Below, piece after piece: positions 15,948-40,657 of a stretch of 64,000 nt of DNA. The stretch is from the IMG/VR virus record IMGVR_UViG_3300025834_000005. One strand, given 5' to 3'. The notes beneath the pieces are model-generated. The model was not told the origin of the DNA. It ran no database searches and worked only from the letters and a program-made list of their open reading frames with translations. The position numbers were made by a program, and so were the translations under genes. How positions within the stretch are numbered: position 1 is the first letter of the stretch; each line of letters opens with the position of its first letter. Source of the stretch: a virus.

Positions 15948-15967
15948 CTAATTTTAAATTAAAGATC

Positions 15968-16732
15968 ATGTATTACGTTGTACAGAAGAATGTTTTTAGA
16001 GAAGAAAATTACGATAATTTGATTATCGCTTTGAATCGGTTAGAGTTGCCTTATGAAATCGTTGATGTGCTACCATTCGTAGACACCTTCGAATTCAAGA
16101 CAACCAGAAAGGATGTATTTCCTTTTGGTGCTGTGAAAATGTCGAGAATTGCCAAAGAATTGGACTGGAATCCAGGCTCTCAATTGTGTGACAATCATGA
16201 TTATAACGTATATAGTAAGTATTATAAGGAGAACTTACTTAATTACGATTCAAAGATCATTAAATTCGGTGATGACTTCTTTCAAACAGAAAGGTTCTTT
16301 GCAAGACCAACATTAGATACGAAAGTGTTTACAGGTAAAGTATTCGACATGGGCGAGTGGATTGAATTCAGAGATAATTCCTTTGCCAATGGACATAGCA
16401 CTTTACTGAACGCCGATACAGAAATTCAGATTTCTTCTGTTAAGAACATTCAGAACGAAATAAGATTCTGGATTGTGAAGGGCGAAATCGCCACAGCAAG
16501 TCAGTATTCTCTGGGTGGAAGATTCTGTGTGAATGCAAACGTTGATCAATCGGCATATGACTTTGTAAACAGAATGATAAAGATATTCGAATTAAACGAC
16601 ACCTTTATCATGGATGCATGCCTTGTTAATGGCGAATACAAAATAGTTGAATGCGGTTGCACTAATAGTGCTGGCTTCTACAGAGCAGACATGCAAAAAC
16701 TGCTTATGAAATTGGAAGACGCTTTCAATTAA
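15968..16732 (+). CDS. ATP-grasp fold protein (R2K-clade/DUF4343-like)
   Basis: FFARPTLDTKVFTGKVF, EIRFWIVKGEIATASQY and FIMDACLVNGEYKIVECGCTNSAGFY match the phage R2K ATP-grasp pattern. Confidence 0.55.
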   Translation: MYYVVQKNVFREENYDNLIIALNRLELPYEIVDVLPFVDTFEFKTTRKDVFPFGAVKMSRIAKELDWNPGSQLCDNHDYNVYSKYYKENLLNYDSKIIKFGDDFFQTERFFARPTLDTKVFTGKVFDMGEWIEFRDNSFANGHSTLLNADTEIQISSVKNIQNEIRFWIVKGEIATASQYSLGGRFCVNANVDQSAYDFVNRMIKIFELNDTFIMDACLVNGEYKIVECGCTNSAGFYRADMQKLLMKLEDAFN

Positions 16733-16739
16733 TATAAAT

Positions 16740-16812
16740 TGTTTCGTGGTGTAATTGGTAACACGTCTGACTCTGAATCAGTTGAGTGCAGGTTCGATCC
16801 CTGCCGAAACAA
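16740..16812 (+). tRNA. tRNA-Gln(CUG)
   Basis: Acceptor TGTTTCG/CGAAACA. Anticodon loop CTCTGAA. T arm GCAGG-TTCGATC-CCTGC. Confidence 0.8.
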
Positions 16813-16822
16813 CTAAACTATA

Positions 16823-16896
16823 TTGCCCTGTTATGTAATGGTTAGCATACGACACTTTGAATGTCGGAGTCATGGTTCGAGTCCATGCAGGGCAAC
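16823..16896 (+). tRNA. tRNA-Gln(UUG)
   Basis: Acceptor TTGCCCT/AGGGCAA. Anticodon arm CGACA-CTTTGAA-TGTCG. T arm CATGG-TTCGAGT-CCATG. Confidence 0.85.
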
Positions 16897-16904
16897 ATTT
16901 TCAC

Positions 16905-16935
16905 TTGCATGTTATTTAAAAAATAACTACTTTTG
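16905..16935 (+). promoter_or_regulatory. Bacteroidota-type promoter
   Basis: cacTTGCATgttatttaaaaaataacTACTTTTGcat, 13 nt before ATG 16949. Confidence 0.5.
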
Positions 16936-16948
16936 CATAAAAAATTTT

Positions 16949-17152
16949 ATGAACTCAGAAAAATTATTGCTACAGATTAAGAAAGATTTAACACCGTTAG
17001 ATATTGGGAAGATAATTGTATTACCATGCAAGGGAGACCCAAGGGTACTACAAAATGAAGTATCGTTTGCAATAATGGGAGAGAATGAAGGCATTATTCA
17101 ATATATTGTAACTGTTGAGAAACTTAATAACAAAACCAATGGGAAACTATAA
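16949..17152 (+). CDS. Hypothetical small protein
   Basis: 67 aa from an internal ATG. The longer track ORF (16823) would run through tRNA-Gln. Confidence 0.5.
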   Translation: MNSEKLLLQIKKDLTPLDIGKIIVLPCKGDPRVLQNEVSFAIMGENEGIIQYIVTVEKLNNKTNGKL

Positions 17153-17540
17153 CCTATTCCTTGATGATTTTAGATCGCCAGAGGACGCTTTCTATTACAT
17201 GCGCAATAGCGATTATTTGAAACTTGAATGGGTAATCGTTCGAAGTTATAATGAGTTTGTGAGCTATATCGAGAAGAATGGTATGCCAGCTACGATTAGC
17301 TTCGACCATGATCTTGCCGATATTCATTATGAACAACAAACAAATATCAACTATGATAATGCTGACGATGATGAGAAGACTGGATATCATTGCGCTAAAT
17401 GGCTTATCGATTACACAATGGATAACGATGTTGAATTACCAGCATATATGTTGATACATTCAATGAATACAGTTGGTAGCCGAAACATTAAATCATTGTT
17501 TGAAAACTACAAGCATTTTGTAAAAAAAGGAGCATCATAA
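17139..17540 (+). CDS. cREC-like (cyclic-phosphate-processing receiver-like) domain protein
   Basis: NLFLDDFR..ISFDHDLA..TGYHCAKWL..IHSMNTVG resembles the cREC family linked to RNA-repair systems. ATG 17139 is preferred over TTG 17115. Confidence 0.45.
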   Translation: MGNYNLFLDDFRSPEDAFYYMRNSDYLKLEWVIVRSYNEFVSYIEKNGMPATISFDHDLADIHYEQQTNINYDNADDDEKTGYHCAKWLIDYTMDNDVELPAYMLIHSMNTVGSRNIKSLFENYKHFVKKGAS

Positions 17541-17556
17541 TGATACTCCTTTTTTG
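17525..17556 (+). terminator. Intrinsic terminator
   Basis: aaggag-catcataatgata-ctcctt followed by TTTT. Confidence 0.6.
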
Positions 17557-17588
17557 TTTATATTAGTATTTATTATAAATTTGATATT

Positions 17589-18587
17589 ATGAGTGATAAG
17601 TATAGCAAAAATAGGCTCTTCGAAATGATGGGCAGGGTGGATAATAATTTCAATGAGGAGTCAACAGCCTCTGATGGTGGCTATCATAGTAAGCATGTAA
17701 ATAATCCACAATCAGCTGGAAAAGAAATACAGAATTGGCTAAATGGCATAGGTCAGGAAAAAACAACGCAAATATATTATAGAATGGCTGACGAATTTAG
17801 AGACATAGTAATTGATGACTCTGATCTATCATATATGCGTTCAGAATCGCCTGATGATTTGGATTATGGCTTTGTTGAAGCATTGGCATGTTATAAGCAT
17901 GACTATAATGAGGATAGTCCTTATATGTACTTCGTTAATTTCTTACTAAGCACTAAATATAGATTCAATCCAAAAACCACATTTAGTTATCGTGCAGAAG
18001 ACTTGGATGAGAAAGGTAAAGCTATTTATAATACTCTTTCAAATGGTGATGACCATTATGGTGAATTGTATGAAGATTTGCTTTATGATCAGGCTGAACA
18101 AGATGATAACAATAATGACCGCAACGGTTATGATGAAAGCGTTAAAAAAAGACTCTCAACTATTTTTGAAATTAAAAACATCGAAGCTCAGAGAAATGGT
18201 AAGAAGAAAGTTTTAAACGAAACTAAGCTTTTTGGCATGATTAATAAACTTGAAAGTAAACGCAAGCTCAATGAATGGGGTGATGAAAATGACTCTGATT
18301 ACGAGAATGATTCAAGTAATTATAGTGAACAAGGTGATTATGATGATCACGAGGGCAGTAGCAGCAATTATGGCGCAAATGACCGTGAAGCCGACAATAC
18401 AGATCATATGGATGAGGAATTATCAACAGAAGACCCTCATTTTCAAATAGGGTCTTTGAGACAGAAACTTAACTCTCATTTAGATCAGGTTCAAAGACTG
18501 TTCACTTATCTGGATGAAAAACCTTCAATAGAAGCTGTTAAGGGGTTTGTAGGAAGCGTTCTAAATGGTTGGGAAAAAGAAAAATAA
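17589..18587 (+). CDS. Highly acidic protein with N-terminal RLFEMMGRV motif
   Basis: 332 aa with Asp/Glu/Asn-rich tracts. N-terminus KNRLFEMMGRVDNNFNE. The motif ttagtatttattataaat lies upstream. Confidence 0.65.
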   Translation: MSDKYSKNRLFEMMGRVDNNFNEESTASDGGYHSKHVNNPQSAGKEIQNWLNGIGQEKTTQIYYRMADEFRDIVIDDSDLSYMRSESPDDLDYGFVEALACYKHDYNEDSPYMYFVNFLLSTKYRFNPKTTFSYRAEDLDEKGKAIYNTLSNGDDHYGELYEDLLYDQAEQDDNNNDRNGYDESVKKRLSTIFEIKNIEAQRNGKKKVLNETKLFGMINKLESKRKLNEWGDENDSDYENDSSNYSEQGDYDDHEGSSSNYGANDREADNTDHMDEELSTEDPHFQIGSLRQKLNSHLDQVQRLFTYLDEKPSIEAVKGFVGSVLNGWEKEK

Positions 18588-18626
18588 AAATATTTTAAAC
18601 TTTTTTGAATTATTTACTATTTATAT

Positions 18627-18656
18627 TTGCAGGTAATAAAAAAAGCATTACCTTTG
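18627..18656 (+). promoter_or_regulatory. Promoter of cassette B (TTGCAG-N-TACCTTTG)
   Basis: tatatTTGCAGgtaataaaaaaagcatTACCTTTGtaccg. Confidence 0.5.
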
Positions 18657-18709
18657 TACCGAAATTAATATTTACTTCCTTTAGGGAATCAAAAAAAAGA
18701 ATAGAAACG

Positions 18710-18844
18710 ATGAGAAATTTACTTAACATGGCACATTACATAGTCAATTCTAATGGGAATCAAAAGAACATGGAATTATTGGCAGTGGAACAGGTCAACC
18801 TCCTATTATGGGCGGATGAGGATACATTGTGCAATGCTGGTTAA
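18710..18844 (+). CDS. Leader mini-ORF B (44 aa)
   Basis: MRNLLNMAHYIVNSNGNQKNMELLAVEQVNLLLWADEDTLCNAG. The block ELLAVEQVNLLLWADED uses the Glu/Leu/Ala/Val/Trp/Asp codons served by the array that follows. Confidence 0.5.
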   Translation: MRNLLNMAHYIVNSNGNQKNMELLAVEQVNLLLWADEDTLCNAG

Positions 18845-18871
18845 GTAGAGTTTAATAATAATATTAAATAA

Positions 18872-18902
18872 AACCTCCAGCATACGTGTTGGAGGTTTTT
18901 TG
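18872..18902 (+). terminator. Intrinsic terminator of cassette B
   Basis: aacctcca-gcatacgtgt-tggaggtt followed by TTTT. Confidence 0.7.
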
Positions 18903-18915
18903 TTTATATGCGTTT

Positions 18916-18932
18916 TTTGACATGTTGGAATT
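18916..18932 (+). promoter_or_regulatory. Conserved 17-nt motif TTTGACATGTTGGAATT before the first tRNA of array B
   Basis: The identical 17-mer recurs at 35854..35870 before array D. It contains TTGACA. Confidence 0.4.
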
Positions 18933-26074: not shown

Positions 26075-26105
26075 TTGCATAATTGAATTATTTAGTTTAT
26101 TTTTG
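26075..26105 (+). promoter_or_regulatory. Bacteroidota-type promoter
   Basis: agacTTGCATaattgaattatttagttTATTTTTGcag, ~35 nt before ATG 26140. Confidence 0.5.
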
Positions 26106-26139
26106 CAGAGTTAAGTATTTAATATAAAAACGTAGTATT

Positions 26140-26472
26140 ATGAAGAAGTAGATTAAGTTAGTAACGATCACCAGAAAAGACCTGAAAGCAGGTTACCAGT
26201 TATGCCAAACCTCACATTCTGTGGCCGAGTTTGCATACACTTATCCAGATCATTTCAATGATTGGATGCGAGATTCCAAATATCTCATTTCATTGTCTGT
26301 CGATAATGAAGACCACCTCAAAACCCTTTTTGACAAATTAAAGACCAATGGTGCTACTATTGTGGCATTCACTGAACCTGATATTAACGATCAGCTGACA
26401 TCGATATGTTATTACGGCACACCTGAGTTGAGAAAATTAACTGACCATTTGGATTTAGCATTAAAAAATTAA
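26140..26472 (+). CDS. Peptidyl-tRNA hydrolase 2 (PTH2)-like protein with in-frame TAG at codon 4
   Basis: ATG AAG AAG TAG ATT AAG TTA GTA.. is in frame with the track ORF (GTG 26221). The 27 residues upstream of the GTG (IKLVTITRKDLKAGYQLCQTSHS) carry the PTH2 R-D-L..G..Q..H signature. Confidence 0.5.
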
Positions 26473-26619
26473 CGTTATGAGAAAGATATAGATACGCCCT
26501 CCATAACGTCATGGGAAACCATGAATTTGCGATTCGCAAATTGCAAATCAACCGCAGAGGTTATTCAGAATGATTAATGCGTATTAATTAAAAATGTTAA
26601 AATTTAAATAAAAAATATC

Positions 26620-27063
26620 ATGGAAACAGTAGTAAATAGTTTGAAAATTGTATCAAAAGATACTAAAGATTTAGTAAATGGCATCGTTAACGTAATTGAG
26701 GTGATTAATAATAAGATCAAAACAACTGATTGGCAGAAATCGGCTTCATTGGAAGCATACGTCAATCCAAAGTTATCTTCATTGGTTAATGATTTGGGGA
26801 CATGTGACAGAAAAAGATTGAAAAGAATGTTAAACAGATGTATGTCTAAACCTTCTATCAGAAACATTAATTCGGTTATTCATTTTCTATCAAAAACAGT
26901 GTATAACAATCTAATCCCTACGTCTTATGTACGTGTATCAGCGAAAGAAGCAAGTATCATTGCTTTACGTAAGAAGTATGTGGAATCTCGTAAAGCTACA
27001 ATAGCTATATACGATGAGTATAAGAGTGTTAAGGGTGATTATTATAAAACTAAATCAATTTAA
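26620..27063 (+). CDS. Hypothetical protein
   Basis: 147 aa ORF. The antisense ORF 26604..26867 is rejected. Confidence 0.6.
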   Translation: METVVNSLKIVSKDTKDLVNGIVNVIEVINNKIKTTDWQKSASLEAYVNPKLSSLVNDLGTCDRKRLKRMLNRCMSKPSIRNINSVIHFLSKTVYNNLIPTSYVRVSAKEASIIALRKKYVESRKATIAIYDEYKSVKGDYYKTKSI

Positions 27064-27110
27064 TTGTAAAATAAAGTTGAATTTATTTAAAAAAATCATT
27101 GCCTAATAAA

Positions 27111-27156
27111 AATAGAACAGGTATATTTGCAGAATGTATCGGTTCTATTTTTTTTG
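27111..27156 (+). terminator. Hairpin + T-run (terminator) whose loop carries a TATATTTG box
   Basis: aatagaac-N23-gttctatt followed by T8. Confidence 0.4.
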
Positions 27157-27216
27157 TGCTAAAAACATGGAAAAATTTATAAATCGATCCTATTTATAAA
27201 AGCAAAAATTAAGTAT

Positions 27217-29766: not shown

Positions 29767-29784
29767 AAAAAGTTAAAAAAATCC

Positions 29785-29815
29785 TTGCTGATTTAAAAAT
29801 AAATAATTAAATTTG
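29785..29815 (+). promoter_or_regulatory. Bacteroidota-type promoter + 5' UTR hairpin
   Basis: ccTTGCTG..aatTAAATTTGcag, then gggtcta-N12-tagaccc before ATG 29874. Confidence 0.45.
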
Positions 29816-29873
29816 CAGAGAATATTAACAAGGGTCTATCGTTAATTCGGTAGACCCATATTAAAAAAAGTAT

Positions 29874-30095
29874 ATGGCATTTAAACACATAACCGAAAAA
29901 GAACAATTAAAACTACAATCCTTTGAGGGACAGCAAGCAAAGATTATTGGAAATCATGTGCATAGTGGTGACATCGTGCAATGCTTGAAATTAGTAATGA
30001 CAGCTGTTGGCTATGGCTTACGTGTGGAAAATACAAAGGGCGATATCTATTATATCTTCAAGCCCAAACAACTGGAAAAATTAATTGTAAAATAA
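29874..30095 (+). CDS. Hypothetical protein
   Basis: 73 aa ORF. Confidence 0.55.
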   Translation: MAFKHITEKEQLKLQSFEGQQAKIIGNHVHSGDIVQCLKLVMTAVGYGLRVENTKGDIYYIFKPKQLEKLIVK

Positions 30096-30121
30096 ATAAG
30101 TAAAGTAAATAAATTGTAATT

Positions 30122-32428: not shown

Positions 32429-32446
32429 AAAAGCATTATTTTATAT

Positions 32447-32475
32447 AAAAAACCCCATAATATGGGGTTTTTTTA
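32447..32475 (+). terminator. Intrinsic terminator
   Basis: aaccccata-a-tatggggtt followed by T-run. Confidence 0.75.
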
Positions 32476-32531
32476 TGTTTATATAAGTAGTTTATTAGTA
32501 TTGAAGTATTTATTAAAAAAATCACAAGTCA

Positions 32532-35399: not shown

Positions 35400-35487
35400 T
35401 ATGAGAAATTAATTCCCTATAATAAACATTGATAATCAATTACTTAAAATTATTATCAATATTTTTTGTATTTTTTATAGAAAAATG

Positions 35488-35518
35488 TTTGGCGGTTGAG
35501 AAAATTGTATTACTTTTG
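35488..35518 (+). promoter_or_regulatory. Promoter of cassette D (TTTG-N19-TACTTTTG)
   Basis: atgTTTGgcggttgagaaaattgtatTACTTTTGtgccg. Confidence 0.5.
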
Positions 35519-35622
35519 TGCCGTGATCAACAAATGAAGCGACGAGATTTTATTTTAACACTTCTGAAACTTTTATGAAAATCACACTATTTATAAGTCT
35601 AAAAGCATTAATAAAAACGAAA

Positions 35623-35769
35623 ATGAAAAAGAACATATCATCATCAGTAACCATATCGGGAATAACAACGAGATCATCTCGCAGTTGTAATGGTATGTCT
35701 ATGTTCAATAGAATTTTTACAGGCATTAATACAGGCATACAAAAAATAGATTGGGTTCTCTTAATGTGA
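35623..35769 (+). CDS. Leader mini-ORF D (48 aa from ATG 35623; the frame is open from 35575)
   Basis: MKKNISSSVTISGITTRSSRSCNGMSMFNRIFTGINTGIQKIDWVLLM. A 36-codon block uses only N,I,S,T,G,R,C,M,F plus one V, the identities of the tRNAs downstream. A 14-codon uORF at 35534..35578 precedes it. Confidence 0.5.
   Translation: MKKNISSSVTISGITTRSSRSCNGMSMFNRIFTGINTGIQKIDWVLLM
35747..35757 (+). promoter_or_regulatory. Candidate antiterminator segment of cassette D
   Basis: TAGATTGGGTT matches 10 of 11 nt of the terminator 3' arm TAGATCGGGTT. It can pair with the 5' arm AACCCGATCTA and lies 10 nt upstream of the mini-ORF stop. Confidence 0.5.
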
Positions 35770-35792
35770 GAATATAAAACCTTAAAACAGGA

Positions 35793-35828
35793 AACCCGAT
35801 CTACCGCAAATAGATCGGGTTTTTTTGT
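35793..35828 (+). terminator. Intrinsic terminator of cassette D
   Basis: aacccgatcta-ccgcaaa-tagatcgggtt (11 bp stem) followed by T7. Confidence 0.8.
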
Positions 35829-35853
35829 TTGATAGCAGTAAGGCTATCGTTTC

Positions 35854-35870
35854 TTTGACATGTTGGAATT
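35854..35870 (+). promoter_or_regulatory. Conserved 17-nt motif TTTGACATGTTGGAATT before the first tRNA of array D
   Basis: Identical to 18916..18932. Lies 8 nt before the tRNA at 35878. Confidence 0.4.
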
Positions 35871-35877
35871 AAAATAA

Positions 35878-35962
35878 GCAAGGCTGATCGAGTGGTCGAA
35901 GGTAGGTGGCTGCAAACCATCTGGAAGATTTTCCCTCATTGGTTCGAATCCAATGCCTTGCT
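35878..35962 (+). tRNA. tRNA(GCA, Cys anticodon, U73) with class II shape (16-nt variable arm)
   Basis: Acceptor GCAAGGC/GCCTTGC. Ser-like D arm ATCGAGTGGTCGAAGGT. Anticodon arm GGTGG-CTGCAAA-CCATC. Variable arm T-GGAA-GATT-TTCC-CTC. T arm ATTGG-TTCGAAT-CCAAT. Confidence 0.7.
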
Positions 35963-35974
35963 CAAAATTTATAT

Positions 35975-36047
35975 TGGCTCTTAGCTCATTTGGTAGAGTT
36001 CTTCCCTGATACGGAAGCGGTGGTGGGTTCGAATCCCACAGAGCCAA
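35975..36047 (+). tRNA. tRNA-Ile(GAU)
   Basis: Acceptor TGGCTCT/AGAGCCA. Anticodon arm CTTCC-CTGATAC-GGAAG. T arm GTGGG-TTCGAAT-CCCAC. Confidence 0.9.
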
Positions 36048-36115
36048 CAACAAAGAAATAAAAAAAGTTATTTAATTTTGTAACCTTTTAAAAGTTTCTT
36101 CGTATAACTAAAAAT

Positions 36116-36198
36116 GGAAGGAGTCCGAATGGACGAGGACACGGTCTTGAAAACCGCTGGGTGTAAAAGCTTTATGGGTTCGATTCCCTTTTCTTCCG
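36116..36198 (+). tRNA. tRNA-Ser(UGA)
   Basis: Class II. Acceptor GGAAGGA/TTCTTCC. Anticodon loop CTTGAAA. T loop TTCGATT. Confidence 0.8.
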
Positions 36199-36462
36199 CA
36201 TAGCTGTTTGATCGACAGAATCATTCAGTCTGATATTGATAAGTAGTGTTAGTAATTATTCTGTTTATTTGCTAATAATATTTATTAAGTATCGTTTCCG
36301 AATTGCTTAAGATGCTGTCATTAAAATTCTGTTGGGACAATTAGAAAGGATGTATTGAACTACCCGATTATAAAAGGTCTCCTGAGATTTTGTGAATCTT
36401 TGTAATAAGGTTCGTGGTCGTGAGTACGAGGCTCACATCGGAAATAAAATTTTGCTTCAATT
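36199..36462 (+). other. 264-nt non-coding stretch inside the tRNA island (several hairpins; decayed tRNAs or unknown RNA)
   Basis: No credible ORF. Hairpins ctgt-ttgatcg-acag and gtgag-tacgagg-ctcac (T-arm-like but with a degenerate loop). Confidence 0.25.
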
Positions 36463-36536
36463 GGGGAGGTAGCTCAGTGGTAGTTAGCGGTGGAGTGAAG
36501 CCCCACAGGTCGTCGGTTCGATCCCGACTCTCCCCA
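36463..36536 (+). tRNA. tRNA-Phe(GAA)
   Basis: Acceptor GGGGAGG/TCTCCCC. Anticodon loop GTGAAGC. T arm GTCGG-TTCGATC-CCGAC. Confidence 0.8.
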
Positions 36537-36618
36537 CGAAAAACAATGGCGTTTAGTACTGTTACTTCACAGGAAATGAAACAAACACAGTACTTCTATC
36601 TACCTTGTTTTTATTATT

Positions 36619-36692
36619 GCAGGTGACGCATAAGTGGTGGTGCATCAGGTTGCCAATCTGAAATAGAGACGGATCGTTCCCGTTCACCTGCT
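36619..36692 (+). tRNA. tRNA-Gly(GCC)
   Basis: Acceptor GCAGGTG/CACCTGC. Anticodon arm TCAGG-TTGCCAA-TCTGA. T arm GACGG-ATCGTTC-CCGTT. Confidence 0.8.
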
Positions 36693-36706
36693 CCACAAAT
36701 TAAATT

Positions 36707-36792
36707 GCAGTAATCGCATAGTTGGTCGATTGCGCCAGCCTTCCAAGCTGGAAAGAGAAATCACGTCGAGGGTTCGAATCCCTCTTACTGCT
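36707..36792 (+). tRNA. tRNA(UCC, Gly anticodon, U73) with 16-nt variable region
   Basis: Acceptor GCAGTAA/TTACTGC. Anticodon arm CCAGC-CTTCCAA-GCTGG. Variable region AAAGAGAAATCACGTC. T arm GAGGG-TTCGAAT-CCCTC. Confidence 0.7.
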
Positions 36793-36806
36793 CAAAATTA
36801 TTAAAG

Positions 36807-37079
36807 ATGAAACTGAAAAATTTATTGAAAGCTTTGTGGGGTCAGTTACCAGTGCAAAGAGCATTTAGGAATTTCTTTATCACTGGAAATGCTCGTGGCA
36901 TGTTTGACATAAGAAGTCACCAACGAGAAGATGGAAGTCCTAAAGTTATGTATAACACCAAAGCCACTGCACAAAAAGCAGCTGATAGTATGGGTAAAAA
37001 AATGGATAGACATTTCTCGGTTTATAAATGCATCTTTTGTGATGGATACCACTTAGGTAAGAATAGAGATAATAAATAA
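36807..37079 (+). CDS. Hypothetical small protein (C-terminal YKCxFCDGYHLG)
   Basis: 90 aa ORF between tRNA genes. Confidence 0.55.
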   Translation: MKLKNLLKALWGQLPVQRAFRNFFITGNARGMFDIRSHQREDGSPKVMYNTKATAQKAADSMGKKMDRHFSVYKCIFCDGYHLGKNRDNK

Positions 37080-37089
37080 TACGATATAT

Positions 37090-37164
37090 TGCGGAATGGA
37101 CTGGAGGTGGCTTCCAGCATGGTCTCATAAGCCAATCACACAGGTTCGAATCCTGTTTCCGCAT
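37090..37164 (+). tRNA. tRNA(CAU), Met or Ile2 undetermined
   Basis: Acceptor TGCGGAA/TTCCGCA. Anticodon loop CTCATAA. T arm ACAGG-TTCGAAT-CCTGT. 4-nt acceptor-D connector. Confidence 0.65.
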
Positions 37165-37177
37165 CTAAATTAAATAA

Positions 37178-37588
37178 ATGGTTAATAATAAAAATTGTAT
37201 TCACTGTGGAAATAGTTTATCTGGTCAACAGTATAAATTTTGTTCGAGTAAATGTAAAAATTCGACTTATCAAAATAAAAAAAGAAGAGAATTTAAAGAT
37301 ATTACAGGTATTTCATTTCAATCATATAAAGGCATAAAGTTAAAACTATTACTTATTTTGGAATTTGGCGGTGCTTGTATTGGATGTGGATATAAAAAGA
37401 ATCTATCAGCATTAGAATTTCATCATCTTGACCCTAATGAGAAGGAATTTACAATTGATGTGAGAACATTGTCGAATCGCAATATTGATAAGATAAGGAA
37501 TGAGCTAAAAAAATGCATACTTGTTTGCTCTAATTGTCATCAGGAAATACATTATCCGCATTTAGATATTGAAACATTAAATTTATAA
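37178..37588 (+). CDS. HNH endonuclease (homing-endonuclease-like)
   Basis: N-terminal Cys pairs. LEFHHLDPNEK..LVCSNCHQEIH HNH core. Inserted between tRNA(CAU) copies. Confidence 0.75.
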   Translation: MVNNKNCIHCGNSLSGQQYKFCSSKCKNSTYQNKKRREFKDITGISFQSYKGIKLKLLLILEFGGACIGCGYKKNLSALEFHHLDPNEKEFTIDVRTLSNRNIDKIRNELKKCILVCSNCHQEIHYPHLDIETLNL

Positions 37589-37598
37589 TTTATACATA

Positions 37599-37829
37599 AT
37601 GATTGAAAGTAATTATAACTCATACGGAAAATTGAAAACAGATAAAGAAACAAAAATTAAAGCTGGCGATACTGTTGAATACAGCTATGCCGATAACGAC
37701 CCAAATGATAAAAATAAAAAAATAATCATAACATTAAGAGGTATTTGGGATGGTGAAAAGGTCTGCTTTGATGATAAGGAACATACTGTTGTAAGAACAA
37801 CATTTTGGTTAACAAAAATAGAAGAATAA
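37599..37829 (+). CDS. Hypothetical protein
   Basis: 76 aa ORF. Confidence 0.55.
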   Translation: MIESNYNSYGKLKTDKETKIKAGDTVEYSYADNDPNDKNKKIIITLRGIWDGEKVCFDDKEHTVVRTTFWLTKIEE

Positions 37830-37830
37830 C

Positions 37831-37962
37831 ATGGAAAGTAAAGACGAAATAATTGAGGAAAAGACAGAAGACCCTATTAATAACTTTGAGGGCGATGGTA
37901 AATTTCATAAATTAAGACTTAAGAATACACATCTTACGCCAAAGAAGAAAAAACGCAAATAG
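37831..37962 (+). CDS. Small basic-tailed hypothetical protein (43 aa)
   Basis: ATG 2 nt after the upstream stop. Ends in KKKKRK-TAG, touching the next tRNA. Below the track size cutoff. Confidence 0.4.
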   Translation: MESKDEIIEEKTEDPINNFEGDGKFHKLRLKNTHLTPKKKKRK

Positions 37963-38034
37963 CGATATTGGTACTGGTTTCCAGTCACGATCTCATAAGT
38001 CGTTGATATGCAGGTTCGATTCCTGTTATCGCCA
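37961..38034 (+). tRNA. tRNA(CAU) with 1:72 A-C mismatch
   Basis: Acceptor AGCGATA/TATCGCC. Anticodon arm ACGAT-CTCATAA-GTCGT. T arm GCAGG-TTCGATT-CCTGT. Unusual D arm (ACTGG-TTT-CCAGT). Confidence 0.65.
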
Positions 38035-38047
38035 CATTAAAACACAC

Positions 38048-38132
38048 TGCGGAATAGTGTAATTGGTAACACACGAGGCTCATAACCTTGAGACATTAAA
38101 TGCTTGTATTGGTTCGAGTCCAATTTCCGCTT
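38048..38132 (+). tRNA. tRNA(CAU) with 17-nt variable region
   Basis: Acceptor TGCGGAA/TTCCGCT. D arm GTGT-AATTGGTA-ACAC. Anticodon arm CGAGG-CTCATAA-CCTTG. T arm ATTGG-TTCGAGT-CCAAT. Confidence 0.65.
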
Positions 38133-38144
38133 CTATATTTACTT

Positions 38145-38218
38145 GGTCGTGTGGCGCAATTGGTTAGCGCAAGATGCTTATATCATCGAGGTTGTGGGTT
38201 CGAGTCCCACCATGACCA
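38145..38218 (+). tRNA. tRNA-Ile(UAU)
   Basis: Acceptor GGTCGTG/CATGACC. Anticodon loop CTTATAT. T arm GTGGG-TTCGAGT-CCCAC. Confidence 0.8.
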
Positions 38219-38229
38219 CAATAATTAAT

Positions 38230-38302
38230 GCTTCCGTAGCTCAGTTGGTAGAGCAATTGACTGTTAATCAATTGGTCACAGGTTCAAGTCCTGTCGGGAG
38301 CG
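38230..38302 (+). tRNA. tRNA-Asn(GUU)
   Basis: Acceptor GCTTCCG/CGGGAGC. Anticodon arm ATTGA-CTGTTAA-TCAAT. T arm ACAGG-TTCAAGT-CCTGT. Confidence 0.9.
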
Positions 38303-38309
38303 CAAAGAT

Positions 38310-38404
38310 ATCAGTGTACTCAAGTGGCTGACGAGAAGTCGTCGAGAAGACGATTAGGATGGGAAAGACTCCCATCCTCATGGGTTCGAATCCCATCACA
38401 GGTA
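38310..38404 (+). tRNA. Ser-type class II tRNA-like gene, 95 nt, odd anticodon loop (CGAGAAG, anticodon AGA if 7-nt loop)
   Basis: D arm CTC-AAGTGGCTGAC-GAG. Anticodon hairpin GTCGT(C)-GAGAA-(G)ACGAT. 8-bp variable arm GGATGGGA/TCCCATCC. T arm ATGGG-TTCGAAT-CCCAT. Confidence 0.5.
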
Positions 38405-38412
38405 TTTCATAT

Positions 38413-38493
38413 GCTTAGTTAGCCAAGTGGAAAGGCAGCACGCTGTTAACGTGCCGAAGAAATTCATCGTAGGTTCGATCCCTGCACTGAGCG
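38413..38493 (+). tRNA. tRNA(GUU, Asn anticodon, G73) with class II shape (14-nt variable arm)
   Basis: Acceptor GCTTAGT/ACTGAGC. D arm GCC-AAGTGGAAA-GGC. Anticodon arm GCACG-CTGTTAA-CGTGC. Variable arm C-GAA-GAAA-TTC-ATC. T arm GTAGG-TTCGATC-CCTGC. Confidence 0.7.
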
Positions 38494-38510
38494 CAAATAA
38501 ATAATGTATT

Positions 38511-38777
38511 ATGAATGATGACACTGGAAGGTATTATATTACCGATTTCAAAACGAAAAGAACGTTTTGTGTAGAGCCGATTGGCGATGATCGAACGAAT
38601 TGGGGCGATGTAGACCCTGTAACTAAGAAGCTTACAGGTGATTATGGAAAGAAACATCGTGGAAGTATTGACGAAGCTGATTCAATAATCACAAAGGAGA
38701 ATGGGTTCAAGAATATTGTCACATTACCAGCTGGTGAATCACCTCAAAGTTATATCGATAATTTGCTAAAATTATAG
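38511..38777 (+). CDS. Hypothetical protein
   Basis: 88 aa ORF. The antisense ORF over the tRNAs is rejected. Confidence 0.55.
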   Translation: MNDDTGRYYITDFKTKRTFCVEPIGDDRTNWGDVDPVTKKLTGDYGKKHRGSIDEADSIITKENGFKNIVTLPAGESPQSYIDNLLKL

Positions 38778-38808
38778 TTGCATATTTAATATATTATGAC
38801 TAAATTTG
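38778..38808 (+). promoter_or_regulatory. Bacteroidota-type promoter
   Basis: tagTTGCATatttaatatattatgacTAAATTTGcag, closely resembling the 14590-14625 promoter region. Confidence 0.5.
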
Positions 38809-38828
38809 CAGTCTAAAATATATTAGAT

Positions 38829-39053
38829 ATGATAGTAAAATATGAACATCATGGAACATTGGTAAATGTAGACATGGATTTAAAAGGATTGCATCGTGAG
38901 CATTGTTTATGCTTTCAAGGTTGTAATTTCTTCAAGCCCGAAGATCATGCAAATAATTGCGAAATCGCCAACGCTGTTTTCAAAAATTGTGTTGACTTCA
39001 ACATTGTTACTCCTGTTTGGGAATGCCCTAAGTTTGAAAAGGAGACTGTATAA
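38829..39053 (+). CDS. Cys-rich small protein
   Basis: 74 aa with 7 Cys (HCLCFQGC..NNC..NC..WEC). Confidence 0.55.
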   Translation: MIVKYEHHGTLVNVDMDLKGLHREHCLCFQGCNFFKPEDHANNCEIANAVFKNCVDFNIVTPVWECPKFEKETV

Positions 39054-39361
39054 TGGCATTAGAAAAATTAATTTTTGCAGAGGATATATTCGACAACCTC
39101 TTTAAAGGAAAAGTATGTACGATTCGACAGGGTCGTAGAGACGTCGAACTTGGTGATCTTTTATGTGAATCACTTGAAGAACATAGATTGAAAACTGTTA
39201 ATGTTATAATGGTTATTTATTGCAGTCTTCAAGATATTCCAGATGAATTTGTTGAGAATGATGGATATCTTGAGCATTATGATATGTTGGCTAAAATGAG
39301 AAGATTCTATCCAGATATTGAATTAACAACCGAGTGCTCAGTAATTATATTCGAGGTATGA
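39053..39361 (+). CDS. ASCH-like (PUA-fold) domain protein
   Basis: FKGKVCTIRQGRRDVELGDLL and a C-terminal ..VIIFEV fit the ASCH pattern. Start overlaps the upstream stop. Confidence 0.4.
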   Translation: MALEKLIFAEDIFDNLFKGKVCTIRQGRRDVELGDLLCESLEEHRLKTVNVIMVIYCSLQDIPDEFVENDGYLEHYDMLAKMRRFYPDIELTTECSVIIFEV

Positions 39362-39624
39362 AAGAAGTTAATGAGCCAGCAAGTTCCGAATTTATAAATG
39401 AATCTGGACTTGATTTTAAAAACATTAGTTCAGAAAGATATAGACAATATGTTTTTCCTAATGGCGAGAATTTGATCATAAATCAGCCTCTTTATCTAAA
39501 CGTTAGTCCGAGTGGCGGACATAGATTATTTGACAATTTCGGTAACAGCTATTATGTTCAGCCTCAAGAGGGTTGGTATATTAAATGGCAAGCAAAATTT
39601 GGATTACCAAACTTCGTTAAATAG
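39358..39624 (+). CDS. Hypothetical protein
   Basis: ATGA overlap with the upstream stop (ATG 39358 preferred over GTG 39334). Stop TAG, with an in-frame TAA two codons later. Confidence 0.55.
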   Translation: MKEVNEPASSEFINESGLDFKNISSERYRQYVFPNGENLIINQPLYLNVSPSGGHRLFDNFGNSYYVQPQEGWYIKWQAKFGLPNFVK

Positions 39625-39690
39625 AAAGACTAAAATGTTGGAGTAACATAATCCGTGTGCCAACTACCTATAATGGGTTTACGGAAATAC

Positions 39691-39763
39691 GCCAGCGTAA
39701 TTCAGTTGATAGAATAGCGCACTTGTAATGCGAATGTCGTGGGTTTGATCCCCTCCGCTGGCT
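39691..39763 (+). tRNA. tRNA-Thr(UGU)
   Basis: Acceptor GCCAGCG/CGCTGGC. Anticodon loop CTTGTAA. T loop TTTGATC. Confidence 0.85.
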
Positions 39764-39771
39764 CTTAAATT

Positions 39772-39857
39772 GCCTTTTTCGCTTAGTTGGTCGATAGCAC
39801 CTGATTAGTAATCAGGATTTCTCCAGAAACACATTGGTTCGAACCCAATAAAAGGCT
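39772..39857 (+). tRNA. tRNA(AGU, Thr anticodon, A34) with class II shape (16-nt variable arm)
   Basis: Acceptor GCCTTTT/AAAAGGC. Anticodon arm CCTGA-TTAGTAA-TCAGG. Variable arm A-TTTC-TCCA-GAAA-CAC. T arm ATTGG-TTCGAAC-CCAAT. Confidence 0.7.
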
Positions 39858-39879
39858 CAAACATTTAAATTAAAAAGTG

Positions 39880-40272
39880 ATGACAATTCAGGAGCAGATT
39901 AATTCAGACATCCATCAAGCAATGTTGGATAAGAACAAAGATTTATTAACATTTTTAAGGGTGGTTGCCAGCGACTTTTATTTTAAGGGTAAAGTGATCG
40001 AAGATGAGACGGCGAAGAAAGTGTTGCGCACATTAAAAGAAGAAGCAACCTTAATGAATAACCAATACGAAATTGAGGTAATCGCTAAATATCTCCCAGC
40101 TTTATTAAGCGAAGCAGAGATCGAGGCACTCGTTGTAGCTGCTATTAATGACAATGGGTTCAATGGAATGAAAGACATGGGTAAGGTTATGGCTGAGTTG
40201 AAAAAGTCTCCTAATGCCTCTCAAATCGACAACACATATGCAAGCAAATTAGTTAGGGTACTTTTAAAATAA
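39880..40272 (+). CDS. GatB/YqeY domain protein
   Basis: KYLPALLSEAEIEALV..GMKDMGKVMAELKK..ASKLVRVLL is the YqeY-family pattern. Confidence 0.7.
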   Translation: MTIQEQINSDIHQAMLDKNKDLLTFLRVVASDFYFKGKVIEDETAKKVLRTLKEEATLMNNQYEIEVIAKYLPALLSEAEIEALVVAAINDNGFNGMKDMGKVMAELKKSPNASQIDNTYASKLVRVLLK

Positions 40273-40279
40273 TTAATAT

Positions 40280-40353: not shown

Positions 40354-40374
40354 CAAATTAATATAATTACGATC

Positions 40375-40650: not shown

Positions 40651-40657
40651 AAAATAT

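What the first reader, a model, noticed from the sequence alone, without database searches (positions are those of the whole stretch)
15968..40272. tRNA arrays are interleaved with a set of tRNA/RNA-end-processing-type proteins
Within the tRNA island lie:
- an R2K-type ATP-grasp protein (15968)
- a cREC-like domain protein (17139), a family linked to RNA-repair systems
- a PTH2-like hydrolase (26140)
- an ASCH-like PUA-fold protein (39053)
- a YqeY/GatB-domain protein (39880)

A Pol-beta-like nucleotidyltransferase lies further on (53368).

Together with the leader cassettes and the suppressor tRNA, this suggests a coordinated module. Its role would be to maintain or repair decoding capacity during infection.
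Basis: inference. Interest (0 to 1): 0.6.

Follow-up and report, generated by a model that had tools for sequence, protein, structure and literature searches.

The report
Phage tRNA island with amber-gated hydrolase
A huge phage packs about 37 tRNA genes together with small translation-helper genes, and one of them, a peptidyl-tRNA-hydrolase-like gene, can only be translated if the stop-codon-reading tRNA encoded next to it is working, an arrangement kept in dozens of other phages.

Summary
The observation largely holds. A 30-kb island (15674-45361) carries all 34-37 tRNA genes of the held record. Profile or fold searches support R2K ATP-grasp, cREC, PTH2-like, YqeY and ASCH. The Pol-beta-like call (53368) is only weakly supported and lies outside the island.

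The island also holds homing endonucleases, a ribonucleotide reductase and glycosyltransferases. It is therefore a loose neighbourhood, not a clean module. No RNA ligase or RtcB was found in the held 45% of the genome, and R2K folds like a peptide ligase. "RNA-end repair" is not shown.

What is shown:
- Several families recur beside tRNA arrays in distant large phages. They are R2K, YqeY and two unnamed small proteins of 90 and 79 aa.
- The PTH2-like gene is ATG, two codons, TAG, then the conserved fold.
- The same early stop codon precedes 77 of 81 relatives (33-77% identity), with a CUA suppressor tRNA within 6 kb in 68.
- One relative has a TAA gate and a homologous UUA tRNA.
- This phage is otherwise not TAG-recoded.

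Translation of the hydrolase is therefore probably gated by the neighbouring suppressor tRNA. An earlier first-stage note of this scan flagged the TAG on this same DNA; its conservation elsewhere is new here.

The parts
15674..45361 (+). tRNA island: 34 (ARAGORN) to 37 (with Rfam) tRNA genes in sub-arrays, all on one strand
15968..16732 (+). R2K-clade ATP-grasp ligase (DUF4343 type). It sits 19 nt after tRNA-His and 7 nt before tRNA-Gln.
   Evidence: Pfam. phrog_7313 5e-50. AF2 model, with Foldseek neighbours ArgX/LysX, Ddl and RimK. Same position in clade relatives.
17115..17540 (+). cREC (cyclic-phosphate-processing receiver-like) protein. An ATG at 17139 is the likelier start.
   Evidence: PF20274 3e-22. 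Invariant DD/D/T positions. Syntenic in L001-L004 and L008.
17589..18587 (+). 332-aa acidic protein of unknown family, downstream of cREC and in the same apparent transcription unit
   Evidence: No Pfam, PHROG or PDB hit. No homologue in any fetched locus. Not similar to the RNA-ligase-like ORF of relative G004.
25317..25556 (+). 79-aa conserved protein (family 'P79', motif AITLMRWIRK), upstream of the suppressor tRNA
   Evidence: 15 homologous ORFs in other phages, all within 500 nt of a tRNA. No Pfam or PHROG family.
25652..25726 (+). Amber suppressor tRNA (anticodon CUA, encoded CCA end)
26140..26472 (+). PTH2-like hydrolase gene: ATG AAG AAG TAG, then the conserved IKLVTITRKDL strand. The TAG at 26149-26151 is the gate codon.
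   Evidence: Gate conserved in 77 of 81 relatives.
36807..37079 (+). 90-aa conserved basic protein (family 'P90') with invariant H38, C75, C78 and H82. It sits 13 nt after tRNA-Gly and 10 nt before the next tRNA.
   Evidence: No known fold match.
39053..39361 (+). ASCH-like (PUA-fold) protein
   Evidence: Atlas features 0.94 and structure TM 0.86 to ASCH clusters. No Pfam hit.
39877..40272 (+). YqeY/GatB-C-type protein. It sits 18 nt after tRNA-Thr and 7 nt before tRNA-Arg.
   Evidence: PF09424 3.4e-19 and phrog_1460. Same Thr-YqeY-Arg position in relative G004.
53368..54387 (+). Pol-beta/family-X-palm-like nucleotidyltransferase candidate, outside the island
   Evidence: phrog_24943 7e-33. 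Family profile against PDB gives only Pol X hits at about 1e-3, with GDxD aligned. No Pfam hit.
15007..15038 (+). Strong terminator-like hairpin that opens the first unit. No further + strand terminator is predicted until 18870-18899, so HNH, tRNA-Pro/His, R2K, tRNA-Gln, cREC and the 332-aa gene appear to form one unit.
   Evidence: consensus scan; co-transcription is inferred
35789..35825 (+). Terminator-like hairpin that opens the long unit holding about 17 tRNAs plus P90, HNH, ASCH and YqeY. Only one weaker + strand hairpin follows it directly (35830-35849); none is predicted from there to 45500.
   Evidence: inference

Best explanation
The stretch is a translation-support island. The phage's tRNA sub-arrays are transcribed together with small protein genes that act on tRNAs or on the translation machinery. 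The proteins do not form one repair pathway. They are a mix-and-match set that recurs beside tRNA arrays in many unrelated large phages:
- a YqeY/GatB-type tRNA-binding helper;
- an unnamed 90-aa protein with a probable zinc site, which often abuts YqeY;
- an unnamed 79-aa protein;
- an R2K ATP-grasp amino-acid ligase;
- a cREC cyclic-phosphate enzyme.

One pair is mechanistically coupled. The PTH2-like hydrolase gene starts ATG-AAG-AAG-TAG and has no other usable start. The protein is therefore made only when the CUA suppressor tRNA encoded 414 nt upstream reads the TAG.

Likely logic (inferred): once suppression is switched on, ribosomes read through host and phage TAG stops. They stall or drop peptidyl-tRNA. 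The gated hydrolase is then produced to free those tRNAs, which keeps the tRNA pool usable.

Shown: domain identities, tight spacing to tRNAs, recurrence in other phages, conservation of the gate codon and its covariation with the anticodon.

Inferred: co-transcription, read-through itself, the substrate of every enzyme and the benefit to the phage.
For: 1. Spacing. R2K, P90 and YqeY each lie 7-19 nt from tRNA genes on both sides, on the same strand. No terminator is predicted inside their units.

2. Recurrence of R2K. It sits between tRNA-Gln copies in relatives at 67% identity, and after tRNA-Leu in relatives at 46%. It lies about 15 nt after a tRNA, inside 17-tRNA arrays, in Tunturiibacter phage Tunturi_5 and Ralstonia phage RsoM2USA at 29% identity. 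In Tunturi_5 an annotated RtcB and a cREC share that island.

3. Distance to the nearest tRNA.
- At or below 500 nt: P90 30/60, P79 15/15, R2K 11/23, YqeY 12/38, cREC 4/10.
- The RNR control from the same island: 1/80.
- About 9% of the held record lies that close to a tRNA.

4. P90 and YqeY.
- They co-occur in 13 of 52 P90 loci, against 3 of 80 control loci.
- In seven loci representing five distinct contigs they abut, with their stop-to-stop frames 0-23 nt apart or overlapping, on one strand and in both gene orders.

5. The gate.
- 77 of 81 PTH2-like loci (57 of 61 distinct, 33-77% identity) have an ATG, a few codons and then TAG directly before the conserved first strand. The nearest upstream ATG lies 1-4 codons before the TAG in 75 of them.
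- A CUA tRNA lies in the +-6 kb locus in 68, and within 2 kb in 64.
- The codon after the gate is never ATG, GTG or TTG in the first ten relatives examined. The median first canonical start lies about 20 codons inside the fold.
- L190 has TAA instead of TAG. Its linked tRNA has anticodon UUA and is 80% identical to the CUA tRNA of L032.
- Neither this genome nor the 12-kb neighbourhoods of the relatives show general TAG recoding. The TAG gain equals the TGA control.

6. Related phages carry a tmRNA gene in the same tRNA island. That fits a ribosome-rescue theme.
Against: - The island also holds at least 5 homing-endonuclease-type genes, RNR, a vWA protein, glycosyltransferases and a methyltransferase. 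Proximity alone therefore proves little.
- RNR itself has a tRNA within 1.4 kb in 14 of 80 relatives.
- R2K is more than 6 kb from any tRNA in five other lineages, although those genomes carry 18-60 tRNAs.
- cREC is far from tRNAs in XacN1, LR756500, LR756501 and G003.
- YqeY is far from tRNAs in five genomes.
- Loci are phylogenetically related, so counts overstate the number of independent events.
- ORF ends were measured stop to stop.
- The canonical Pth2 'GK' lysine is Tyr or Gln in this family. The substrate may therefore not be peptidyl-tRNA.
- No expression or read-through data were examined.
- The residue inserted at TAG is unknown. The suppressor tRNAs of relatives are very diverse.
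Confidence: 0.55

Rival explanations
1. Co-location without shared function. tRNA islands are recombination and insertion hot spots, rich in homing endonucleases, that are expressed at one time of infection. Small accessory genes of any function collect there. On this view the five families are a selective reading of a mixed gene set.
For: - At least 5 endonuclease-type genes plus RNR, vWA, glycosyltransferase and methyltransferase genes sit in the same island.
- RNR relatives have some tRNA within 8 kb in 30 of 80 loci.
- R2K, cREC and YqeY are each far from tRNAs in several genomes.
Against: - The families lie much closer to tRNAs than the RNR control does: 1/80 within 500 nt, against 11/23, 12/38, 30/60 and 15/15.
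- The association reappears at 29% identity in phages of Acidobacteriota and Betaproteobacteria.
- P90 and YqeY stay adjacent in both gene orders.
- Hitch-hiking cannot explain the covariation between gate codon and anticodon.
Confidence: 0.2
2. A dedicated tRNA heal-and-seal repair pathway. cREC opens the 2',3'-cyclic phosphates left by host anticodon nucleases. Partner enzymes then restore and rejoin the tRNA ends. R2K, ASCH and the nucleotidyltransferase would serve that pathway.
For: - cREC is predicted to process cyclic phosphates and is linked to RNA ligases in phages (PMC7824862 and PMC9503650).
- In relative G003 an RNA_ligase-family ORF lies 1.6 kb from cREC. In G004 a weak one lies 8 kb downstream, in the tRNA island.
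- In Tunturi_5, cREC, an annotated RtcB and R2K share one tRNA island.
- Earlier notes of this scan report a CCA-adding/2H fusion protein elsewhere in this genome. I did not check this.
Against: - No RtcB, PF09414 ligase or homologue of the G004 ligase-like ORF was found in the held 148.5 kb, which is 45% of the genome.
- The 332-aa neighbour of cREC is not ligase-like.
- The nearest folds to R2K are carboxylate-amine ligases (ArgX/LysX, Ddl, RimK), not nucleic-acid ligases.
- The nucleotidyltransferase lies outside the island and resembles DNA polymerase X palms.
Confidence: 0.1
3. The TAG in the PTH2-like gene has no regulatory meaning. Either it is an ordinary sense codon of a TAG-recoded lineage, or translation starts just after it at a non-canonical codon and the short ATG-TAG frame is accidental.
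For: - Many large gut phages recode TAG and carry CUA tRNAs (preprint 10.1101/2021.08.26.457843).
- The codon after the TAG is often ATT or ATA, which are rare start codons.
- In L231 a TTG follows the stop directly, and L239 has a plain ATG start.
Against: - Across relatives of 33-77% identity the position is TAG in 77 of 81 loci. It is never a sense codon, while the flanking N-terminal codons vary freely.
- No other TAG occurs inside the gene.
- The neighbourhoods and this genome show no TAG recoding above the TGA control.
- In many relatives the codon after the gate is GTA, AAA, ACT or CAT, which cannot start translation.
- An in-frame ATG always precedes the gate.
- TAA is paired with a UUA tRNA in L190.
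Confidence: 0.1

Closest known systems
Jumbo-phage RNA-repair and translation gene sets (Iyer, Anantharaman, Krishnan, Burroughs, Aravind 2021, PMC7824862; NAD/ADPr survey PMC9503650)
   Same: The same families are catalogued in large phages that carry many tRNAs. cREC is listed as a predicted cyclic-phosphate enzyme linked to RNA ligases. PTH2 is listed for ribosome rescue. R2K is listed as a predicted peptide ligase that modifies host proteins.
   Different: In the passages retrieved there, the families are treated separately and as phyletic patterns. I found no mention of any of the following:
- R2K or YqeY embedded between tRNA genes;
- the P90 and P79 families;
- a stop-codon gate in PTH2.

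Here the sealing enzymes are not seen in the held sequence.
'Code change module' of stop-codon-recoded phages (Borges et al., preprint 10.1101/2021.08.26.457843)
   Same: A suppressor tRNA is encoded beside proteins that help to manage a changed reading of a stop codon. In-frame stops delay the expression of certain genes until suppression is active.
   Different: - That module is suppressor tRNA + aminoacyl-tRNA synthetase + release factor, and it sits upstream of recoded lysis genes. The word 'hydrolase' does not occur in the text.
- Here the partner is a PTH2-like protein.
- The gate is a single stop at codon 2-5 of that one gene.
- The held genome is not otherwise recoded.
Archaeal/eukaryotic peptidyl-tRNA hydrolase Pth2 (PDB 2zv3, 1wn2, 1q7s Bit1, 1rlk, 1xty)
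   Same: The profile aligns over the full length of about 105 residues to six Pth2 structures. Pfam PF01981 scores at its cut-off.
   Different: - Where the aligned Pth2 chains have Gly-Lys, this family has Gly-Tyr or Gly-Gln.
- The 'DAG' stretch is replaced by an invariant EPD.
- That the Lys is catalytic is from my memory of the Pth2 literature. It was not checked here.
RimK, LysX and ArgX ATP-grasp ligases
   Same: These are the best structural neighbours of the R2K model: Foldseek E 7e-9 to 5e-7, TM 0.57-0.67. They add amino acids to the C-terminus of a small protein (S6, LysW).
   Different: - Sequence identity is only 11-16%, and the R2K profile finds no PDB chain by sequence.
- The substrate is unknown.
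- The candidate small partner P90 has a variable, basic C-terminus, unlike LysW or S6.
YqeY-motif protein gp65 next to the tRNA clusters of Pseudomonas phage pf16 (PMC5587285)
   Same: A YqeY-domain gene lies adjacent to phage tRNA genes and is speculated to aid tRNA charging.
   Different: That is a single anecdotal case. Here the association is counted in 38 sites, with a control, and a recurrent abutting partner gene (P90) is added.
Phage T4 Pnk/Rnl1 repair of PrrC-cleaved tRNA-Lys (textbook knowledge, not checked here)
   Same: A phage answer to loss of usable tRNA during infection. cREC would stand in for the end-healing step.
   Different: No kinase-phosphatase or ligase was found in the held sequence. 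Here the tRNAs themselves are supplied in bulk.

Membership tests
R2K clade ATP-grasp (Pfam PF14243/PF18299; DUF4343 type) | Profile match above the curated cut-off | tested here: met
   PF14243 57.8 bits (cut-off 26.3) and PF18299 46 bits
R2K clade ATP-grasp (Pfam PF14243/PF18299; DUF4343 type) | ATP-grasp fold with two conserved lysines and acidic metal ligands | tested here: met
   The AF2 model (pLDDT 84.5) matches ATP-grasp ligases. K119, K159, E164, D216 and E228 are invariant in 39 sequences. Assigning these residues to roles is inference.
R2K clade ATP-grasp (Pfam PF14243/PF18299; DUF4343 type) | ATP-dependent amino-acid or peptide ligation to a protein | not testable with these tools
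   Needs biochemistry
cREC (PF20274) | Profile match above the cut-off | tested here: met
   79.5 bits against a cut-off of 27
cREC (PF20274) | Receiver-like acidic active-site residues conserved | tested here: met
   D17, D18, D64 and T89 are invariant in 7 homologues
cREC (PF20274) | Genomic link to RNA ligase or NAD/ADP-ribose enzymes | tested here: inconclusive
   None in the held 45% of this genome. Present beside cREC in G003, and within the same island in Tunturi_5.
Peptidyl-tRNA hydrolase PTH2 (PF01981) | Sequence profile match | tested here: met
   23.0 bits, equal to the cut-off of 23. The family profile hits six Pth2 structures, best 5.7e-6, over the full length.
Peptidyl-tRNA hydrolase PTH2 (PF01981) | Conserved Gly-Lys of the first helix (catalytic Lys, from memory) | tested here: not met
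   Gly-Tyr or Gly-Gln in all 9 aligned members. I therefore call it PTH2-like, not a Pth2 orthologue.
Peptidyl-tRNA hydrolase PTH2 (PF01981) | Hydrolysis of peptidyl-tRNA | not testable with these tools
   Needs an enzyme assay
YqeY/GatB C-terminal domain (PF09424) | Profile match above the cut-off | tested here: met
   69.8 bits against a cut-off of 27, covering residues 61-130 and profile positions 75-143. phrog_1460 covers residues 2-128.
ASCH (PF04266) | Pfam profile match | tested here: not met
   No hit at E 0.01
ASCH (PF04266) | PUA-like ASCH fold | tested here: met
   The Atlas model has TM 0.86/0.80 to ASCH clusters. Feature score 0.94, with 214 shared features.
Pol-beta superfamily / family X polymerase palm | G[SD]...DxD motif and palm alignment | tested here: inconclusive
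   The family consensus has FGDxDIL, aligned with the GDLDFL of Thermus Pol X. 50 of 51 PDB hits are Pol X, but E is only 1e-3 to 1. No Pfam hit in the window protein, and 1 of 40 members hits DNA_pol_B_palm.
Phage heal-and-seal tRNA repair system | End-healing enzyme plus RNA ligase in one genome or neighbourhood | tested here: inconclusive
   cREC is present. No RtcB or PF09414 ligase was found in the held 148.5 kb, but the record is only 45% complete.
Code change module of recoded phages | Suppressor tRNA with aminoacyl-tRNA synthetase and release factor, and late genes carrying in-frame stops | tested here: not met
   A suppressor tRNA is present. No aminoacyl-tRNA synthetase or release-factor family turned up among the island ORFs scanned, though neither was searched for by name. 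The held genome shows no TAG recoding.

The most novel reading that the evidence does not exclude
The suppressor tRNA and the stop-gated PTH2-like gene form a conserved two-gene device.

- The hydrolase is synthesised in proportion to suppressor activity, because the gate sits at codon 2-5. A failed read-through therefore costs only a di- to tetrapeptide.
- The hydrolase either clears the peptidyl-tRNAs that read-through creates, or feeds back on the suppressor tRNA itself.
- The device tracks whichever stop the tRNA reads: TAG with CUA, TAA with UUA.
- One relative (L231) may even use a four-base gate. There the ATG frame ends at TGAA, one base out of frame with the gene. The adjacent tRNA has an 8-nt anticodon loop with UUCA.

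This would be a natural sensor of suppression, possibly with a natural quadruplet-decoding variant.
Probability: 0.3. Interest if true: 0.85.

Novelty: new variant of a known kind. Interest (0 to 1): 0.66.

Why it matters
Large phages are known to carry many tRNAs and scattered translation genes. How the two are connected has mostly been argued from gene lists.

This stretch gives a concrete, testable link. A gene's reading frame is physically dependent on the tRNA gene beside it. The arrangement is kept across dozens of divergent phages, and the codon changes when the anticodon changes.

If confirmed, three things follow:
- It shows how a phage can time or meter a protein by its own suppressor tRNA without recoding its genome.
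- It gives a function to suppressor tRNAs in phages that are not recoded.
- It offers a compact natural part for stop-codon-controlled expression.

The survey also points to two unnamed protein families, of 90 and 79 aa. Their most consistent feature is that they live inside phage tRNA arrays, which makes them good candidates for new tRNA-handling factors.

Tried and rejected
- **Megablast against phage records.** A search of 15000-27000 found nothing useful.
- **332-aa ORF (17589-18587).**
  - It has no Pfam, PHROG or PDB-sequence match and no homologue in about 250 fetched loci.
  - I tested the idea that it is a diverged RNA ligase and rejected it: BLASTP E 0.25 against the ligase-like ORF of G004.
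- **R2K as an RNA ligase of the RLIG1 type.** Rejected, because the nearest folds are ArgX/LysX, Ddl and RimK. The R2K profile finds no PDB chain by sequence.
- **P90 fold.** Foldseek PDB gave no hit below E 0.6. VIA-align wide gave best Z 4.0, to designed mini-proteins. The profile against PDB gave nothing. The fold is unassigned, which is not evidence that it is new.
- **P90 as a LysW-like carrier for R2K.** Not supported, because its C-terminus is variable and basic.
- **Complex prediction for YqeY + P90.** There is no result.
- **Other stop-gated genes in this genome.** 52910-53290 looked similar but has an internal ATG that explains it. 40665-41627 overlaps a tRNA.
- **General TAG or TGA recoding of this genome.** Rejected.
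- **Suppressor tRNA identity.** It could not be assigned. Its best match to any island tRNA is 69%, and it is not Gln-like.
- **L233.** It has a TGA upstream and no matching tRNA, and remains unexplained.
- **Earlier notes of this scan.** A word search for the gene set returned nothing.
- **Sequencing reads.** No reads were laid on the stretch.

Full report
**1. What is in the stretch**

ARAGORN finds 34 tRNA genes between 15674 and 45361, all on the + strand. One of them has a CUA anticodon (25652-25726). Rfam adds three more tRNAs, at 24063, 36619 and 39691, and finds no other RNA family.

The held record of this phage is 148.5 kb and is estimated to be 45% complete. All of its tRNAs lie in this 30-kb island.

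Consensus scans place strong + strand terminator-like hairpins at 15007-15038, 18870-18899, 20112-20149, 25583-25604 and 35789-35825. Two long units appear to follow from this, by inference:
- Between the first two hairpins lie an HNH gene, tRNA-Pro/Pro/His, R2K, tRNA-Gln x2, cREC and a 332-aa ORF.
- After 35825 only one weaker + strand hairpin follows directly (35830-35849), and none is predicted from there to 45500. This stretch holds about 17 tRNAs, a 90-aa ORF, an HNH gene, ASCH, YqeY and a run of glycosyltransferases.

R2K, the 90-aa ORF and YqeY each sit 7-19 nt from a tRNA gene on both sides.

**2. The domain calls**

| Gene | Verdict | Evidence |
|---|---|---|
| R2K (15968-16732) | confirmed | PF14243 2e-15 and PF18299 6e-12. 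AF2 model with pLDDT 84.5. |
| cREC (17115-17540) | confirmed | PF20274 3e-22. Receiver-like D17, D18, D64 and T89 invariant. |
| YqeY (39877-40272) | confirmed | PF09424 3.4e-19. |
| PTH2-like (26140-26472) | supported | PF01981 at exactly its cut-off, 23.0 bits. A 9-member profile hits six Pth2/Bit1 structures over the full length, best 5.7e-6. |
| ASCH (39053-39361) | supported by fold only | No Pfam hit. Atlas feature score 0.94, and its own model has TM 0.86 to ASCH clusters. |
| Pol-beta-like (53368-54387) | weak | No Pfam hit. The family has 2055 representatives. Its consensus contains FGDxDIL, and its profile hits almost only family-X polymerase palms, at E about 1e-3. |

Three further points:
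- The best Foldseek neighbours of the R2K model are ArgX/LysX, D-Ala-D-Ala ligases and RimK. It is therefore a carboxylate-amine ligase type, not a nucleic-acid ligase.
- Where the aligned Pth2 chains have Gly-Lys, the PTH2-like family has Gly-Tyr or Gly-Gln. I call it PTH2-like for that reason.
- The Pol-beta-like gene lies 8 kb beyond the last tRNA.

**3. The rest of the island**

The same 30 kb contains:
- HNH genes at 15143 and 37178;
- a GIY-YIG gene at 20592 (- strand);
- two further homing-endonuclease-like genes at 24538 (- strand) and 44355;
- a class II-type ribonucleotide reductase;
- a vWA protein and a 955-aa unknown protein;
- four or five glycosyltransferases;
- a methyltransferase just beyond the island (46948).

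**4. Are the genes tied to tRNAs elsewhere?**

*R2K.*
- In relatives at 67% identity (L001-L004) it sits between tRNA-Gln copies with cREC downstream. At 46% identity (L005-L007) it follows a Gln/Leu array.
- Among phage records, all nine examined carry 18-62 tRNAs.
- R2K lies about 15 nt after a tRNA, inside 17-tRNA arrays, in Tunturi_5 and RsoM2USA at 29% identity.
- It lies 135 nt from a tRNA in LR756500 and 4 kb from one in LR756501.
- It is far from any tRNA in the Brevundimonas, Rhizobium, Sinorhizobium, Caulobacter and Xanthomonas phages.
- In total, 5 of 11 lineages have it inside an array. With 9-20% of a genome lying that close to tRNAs, this gives p between 0.002 and 0.05.

*Tunturi_5.* Here cREC, an annotated RtcB and R2K share one tRNA island.

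*cREC.* It is far from tRNAs in XacN1, LR756500, LR756501 and G003. In G003 it lies 1.6 kb from an RNA_ligase-family ORF.

*YqeY.* It keeps the Thr-YqeY-Arg position in G004 and lies inside the array in G003. It has a tRNA within the locus in about half of 18 IMG/VR loci.

*Control.* Relatives of the island's own ribonucleotide reductase served as control.
- A tRNA lies within 8 kb in 30 of 80 loci.
- A tRNA lies within 500 nt in only 1 of 80.

*With local HMMs over all fetched loci*, the share of sites within 500 nt of a tRNA was:

| Family | Within 500 nt |
|---|---|
| R2K | 11/23 |
| YqeY | 12/38 |
| cREC | 4/10 |
| RNR control | 1/80 |

All differ from the control by Fisher test. These counts include related genomes and stop-to-stop ORF ends, so they overstate independence.

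**5. Two further families emerged**

*P90.* The 90-aa ORF at 36807-37079 is 50-57% identical to ORFs in Ralstonia, Brevundimonas, Caulobacter and Cellulophaga phages.
- It is found in 52 IMG/VR loci.
- 30 of 60 sites lie within 500 nt of a tRNA, and 17 within 100 nt.
- A YqeY gene lies in 13 of 52 P90 loci, against 3 of 80 control loci.
- In seven loci representing five distinct contigs the two genes abut, with their stop-to-stop frames 0-23 nt apart or overlapping. They are on one strand and occur in both orders.
- It has invariant H38, C75, C78 and H82 and no recognisable fold.

*P79.* The 79-aa ORF at 25317-25556 has 15 homologous ORFs, all within 500 nt of a tRNA. One is in Tunturi_5.

**6. 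The amber gate**

The PTH2-like frame reads ATG AAG AAG TAG ATT AAG TTA GTA.... The first canonical start after the TAG is 23 codons inside the conserved fold.

In ten relatives first examined, an ATG, a few codons and a TAG always precede the conserved KLVTxTRKD strand.

A profile-based scan then gave 81 loci at 33-77% identity, 61 of them distinct:
- 77 loci (57 distinct) show the same design. Counted from the nearest upstream ATG, the TAG is codon 2-5 in 75 of them.
- The short N-terminal peptide varies freely (MK, MKL, MS, MT, MKDK, MSL, MTH...), while the TAG stays.
- A CUA tRNA lies within the +-6 kb locus in 68 of the 77, and within 2 kb in 64.

The exceptions are informative:
- L190 has ATG ACT TAA. 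An ochre-type tRNA (UUA) lies about 800 nt upstream, and it is 80% identical to the CUA tRNA of L032. This is a paired change of codon and anticodon.
- L239 has a plain ATG start.
- In L231 the ATG frame ends at TGAA, one base out of frame with the gene. The tRNA 70 nt upstream has an 8-nt anticodon loop with UUCA, the exact complement. A TTG start directly after it is the simpler alternative, so I treat this as a lead only.

General recoding does not explain the gate:
- This genome's ORF coverage is the same under code 11 and under TAG-as-sense.
- The relatives' neighbourhoods gain no more from TAG-as-sense than from the TGA control.

**7. What is missing for 'repair'**

No RtcB, PF09414 RNA ligase or homologue of the ligase-like ORF of G004 is present in the held 148.5 kb. 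The 332-aa neighbour of cREC has no detectable relatives.

Earlier notes of this scan place a CCA-adding/2H fusion and a Ro60/Y-RNA locus elsewhere in this genome. I did not verify them, and they are not in the island.

**8. Reading**

The best reading is a translation-support island. tRNA arrays are co-transcribed with a loose, recurrent set of tRNA- or ribosome-directed helpers. One pair is truly coupled: the suppressor tRNA and the stop-gated PTH2-like hydrolase.

A plausible purpose is to make the hydrolase only when suppression is active. Read-through of normal TAG stops then raises the load of stalled ribosomes and dropped peptidyl-tRNA. Relatives also keep a tmRNA gene in the same island. 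The purpose is inferred; the genetic dependence is what the sequences show.

The rivals are:
- hitch-hiking in an insertion hot spot;
- a true heal-and-seal pathway;
- a meaningless TAG.

Each is weakened by the data above, but none is excluded.

**9. Relation to what is known**

- cREC, PTH2 and R2K in jumbo phages are described as separate items in PMC7824862 and PMC9503650.
- R2K is predicted to be a peptide ligase in PMC4431377. tRNA appears there only in the reference list.
- A YqeY gene beside tRNAs was noted once, for phage pf16 (PMC5587285).
- The 'code change module' of recoded phages pairs a suppressor tRNA with a synthetase and a release factor. That text does not contain the word hydrolase.
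- I found no description of the stop-gated PTH2-like gene, or of the P90 and P79 families, in the searchable literature. That library is incomplete.
- A first-stage note of this scan had already flagged the TAG at codon 4 on this same DNA.

**10. Limits**

- No expression, read-through or enzymatic data were examined.
- The genome is incomplete.
- Counts are not corrected for phylogeny.
- The complex prediction could not be run.

Noticed in passing
window 36807-37079; loci L054-L105; L009 11809-12093 (-); L012 4869-5180: A 90-aa basic protein family is 44-87% identical across very distant large phages. It usually sits inside tRNA arrays and often abuts a YqeY gene. It has invariant H38, C75, C78 and H82 and no Pfam family or known fold. 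Its phage records overlap strongly with those that carry R2K.
   Followed up: partly
window 25317-25556; L022, L024, L040, L067-L071, L082, L089, L115, L154, L160, L163, L166: A 79-aa protein family (motif AITLMRWIRK) always lies directly beside tRNA genes, also in the Acidobacteriota phage Tunturi_5. It has no known family.
   Followed up: partly
L231 5858-5933 and 5960-6010; L239 7421-7494: These tRNA genes have an 8-nt anticodon loop carrying UUCA. In L231 the tRNA lies 70 nt before a PTH2-like gene whose upstream ATG frame ends at TGAA, one base out of frame. This may be natural four-base decoding; a TTG start is the alternative.
   Followed up: partly
L002 20044-20394; L003 17518-17873; L008 15460-15823; L102 near 8500: Relatives carry a tmRNA gene inside the tRNA island. 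In L008 it starts 20 nt after the homologue of window ORF 21647-22333 (phrog_4243). No tmRNA was found in this window, where two - strand ORFs (22420-23836) occupy the corresponding place.
   Followed up: no
L005-L007 10001-10773: The R2K homologue in these three contigs matches in two overlapping pieces in different frames, with 9 stops in a straight translation. It is either a frameshifted gene or a programmed shift.
   Followed up: no
L010 (Rhizobium phage RHph_Y65) 1-2106 and 6001-6804: A family-X DNA polymerase and an ASCH-domain gene are annotated within 6 kb upstream of the R2K (DUF4343) gene, with no tRNA nearby.
   Followed up: no
window 25652-25726 compared with L027-L035, L186-L198: The CUA suppressor tRNAs linked to the PTH2-like gene are very diverse: several unrelated acceptor stems, 55-80% identity. 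The tRNA partner seems to have been exchanged repeatedly while the gate was kept.
   Followed up: partly
window 19082-19154 and 37090-37165: ARAGORN reports two tRNA-like genes with irregular two-base 'anticodons'. The second also passes Rfam's tRNA threshold weakly (35.7 bits).
   Followed up: no
L233 5948-6010: This PTH2-like gene has no in-frame start. The upstream ATG frame (ATG AAG CGG ATC TAA) is one base out of frame, and no matching suppressor tRNA is present. It is unexplained.
   Followed up: no
window 30122-35399: A 768-aa vWA protein is followed by a 955-aa protein with no family, downstream of the ribonucleotide reductase. The RNR-vWA pair is kept in 24 of 80 RNR relatives.
   Followed up: no
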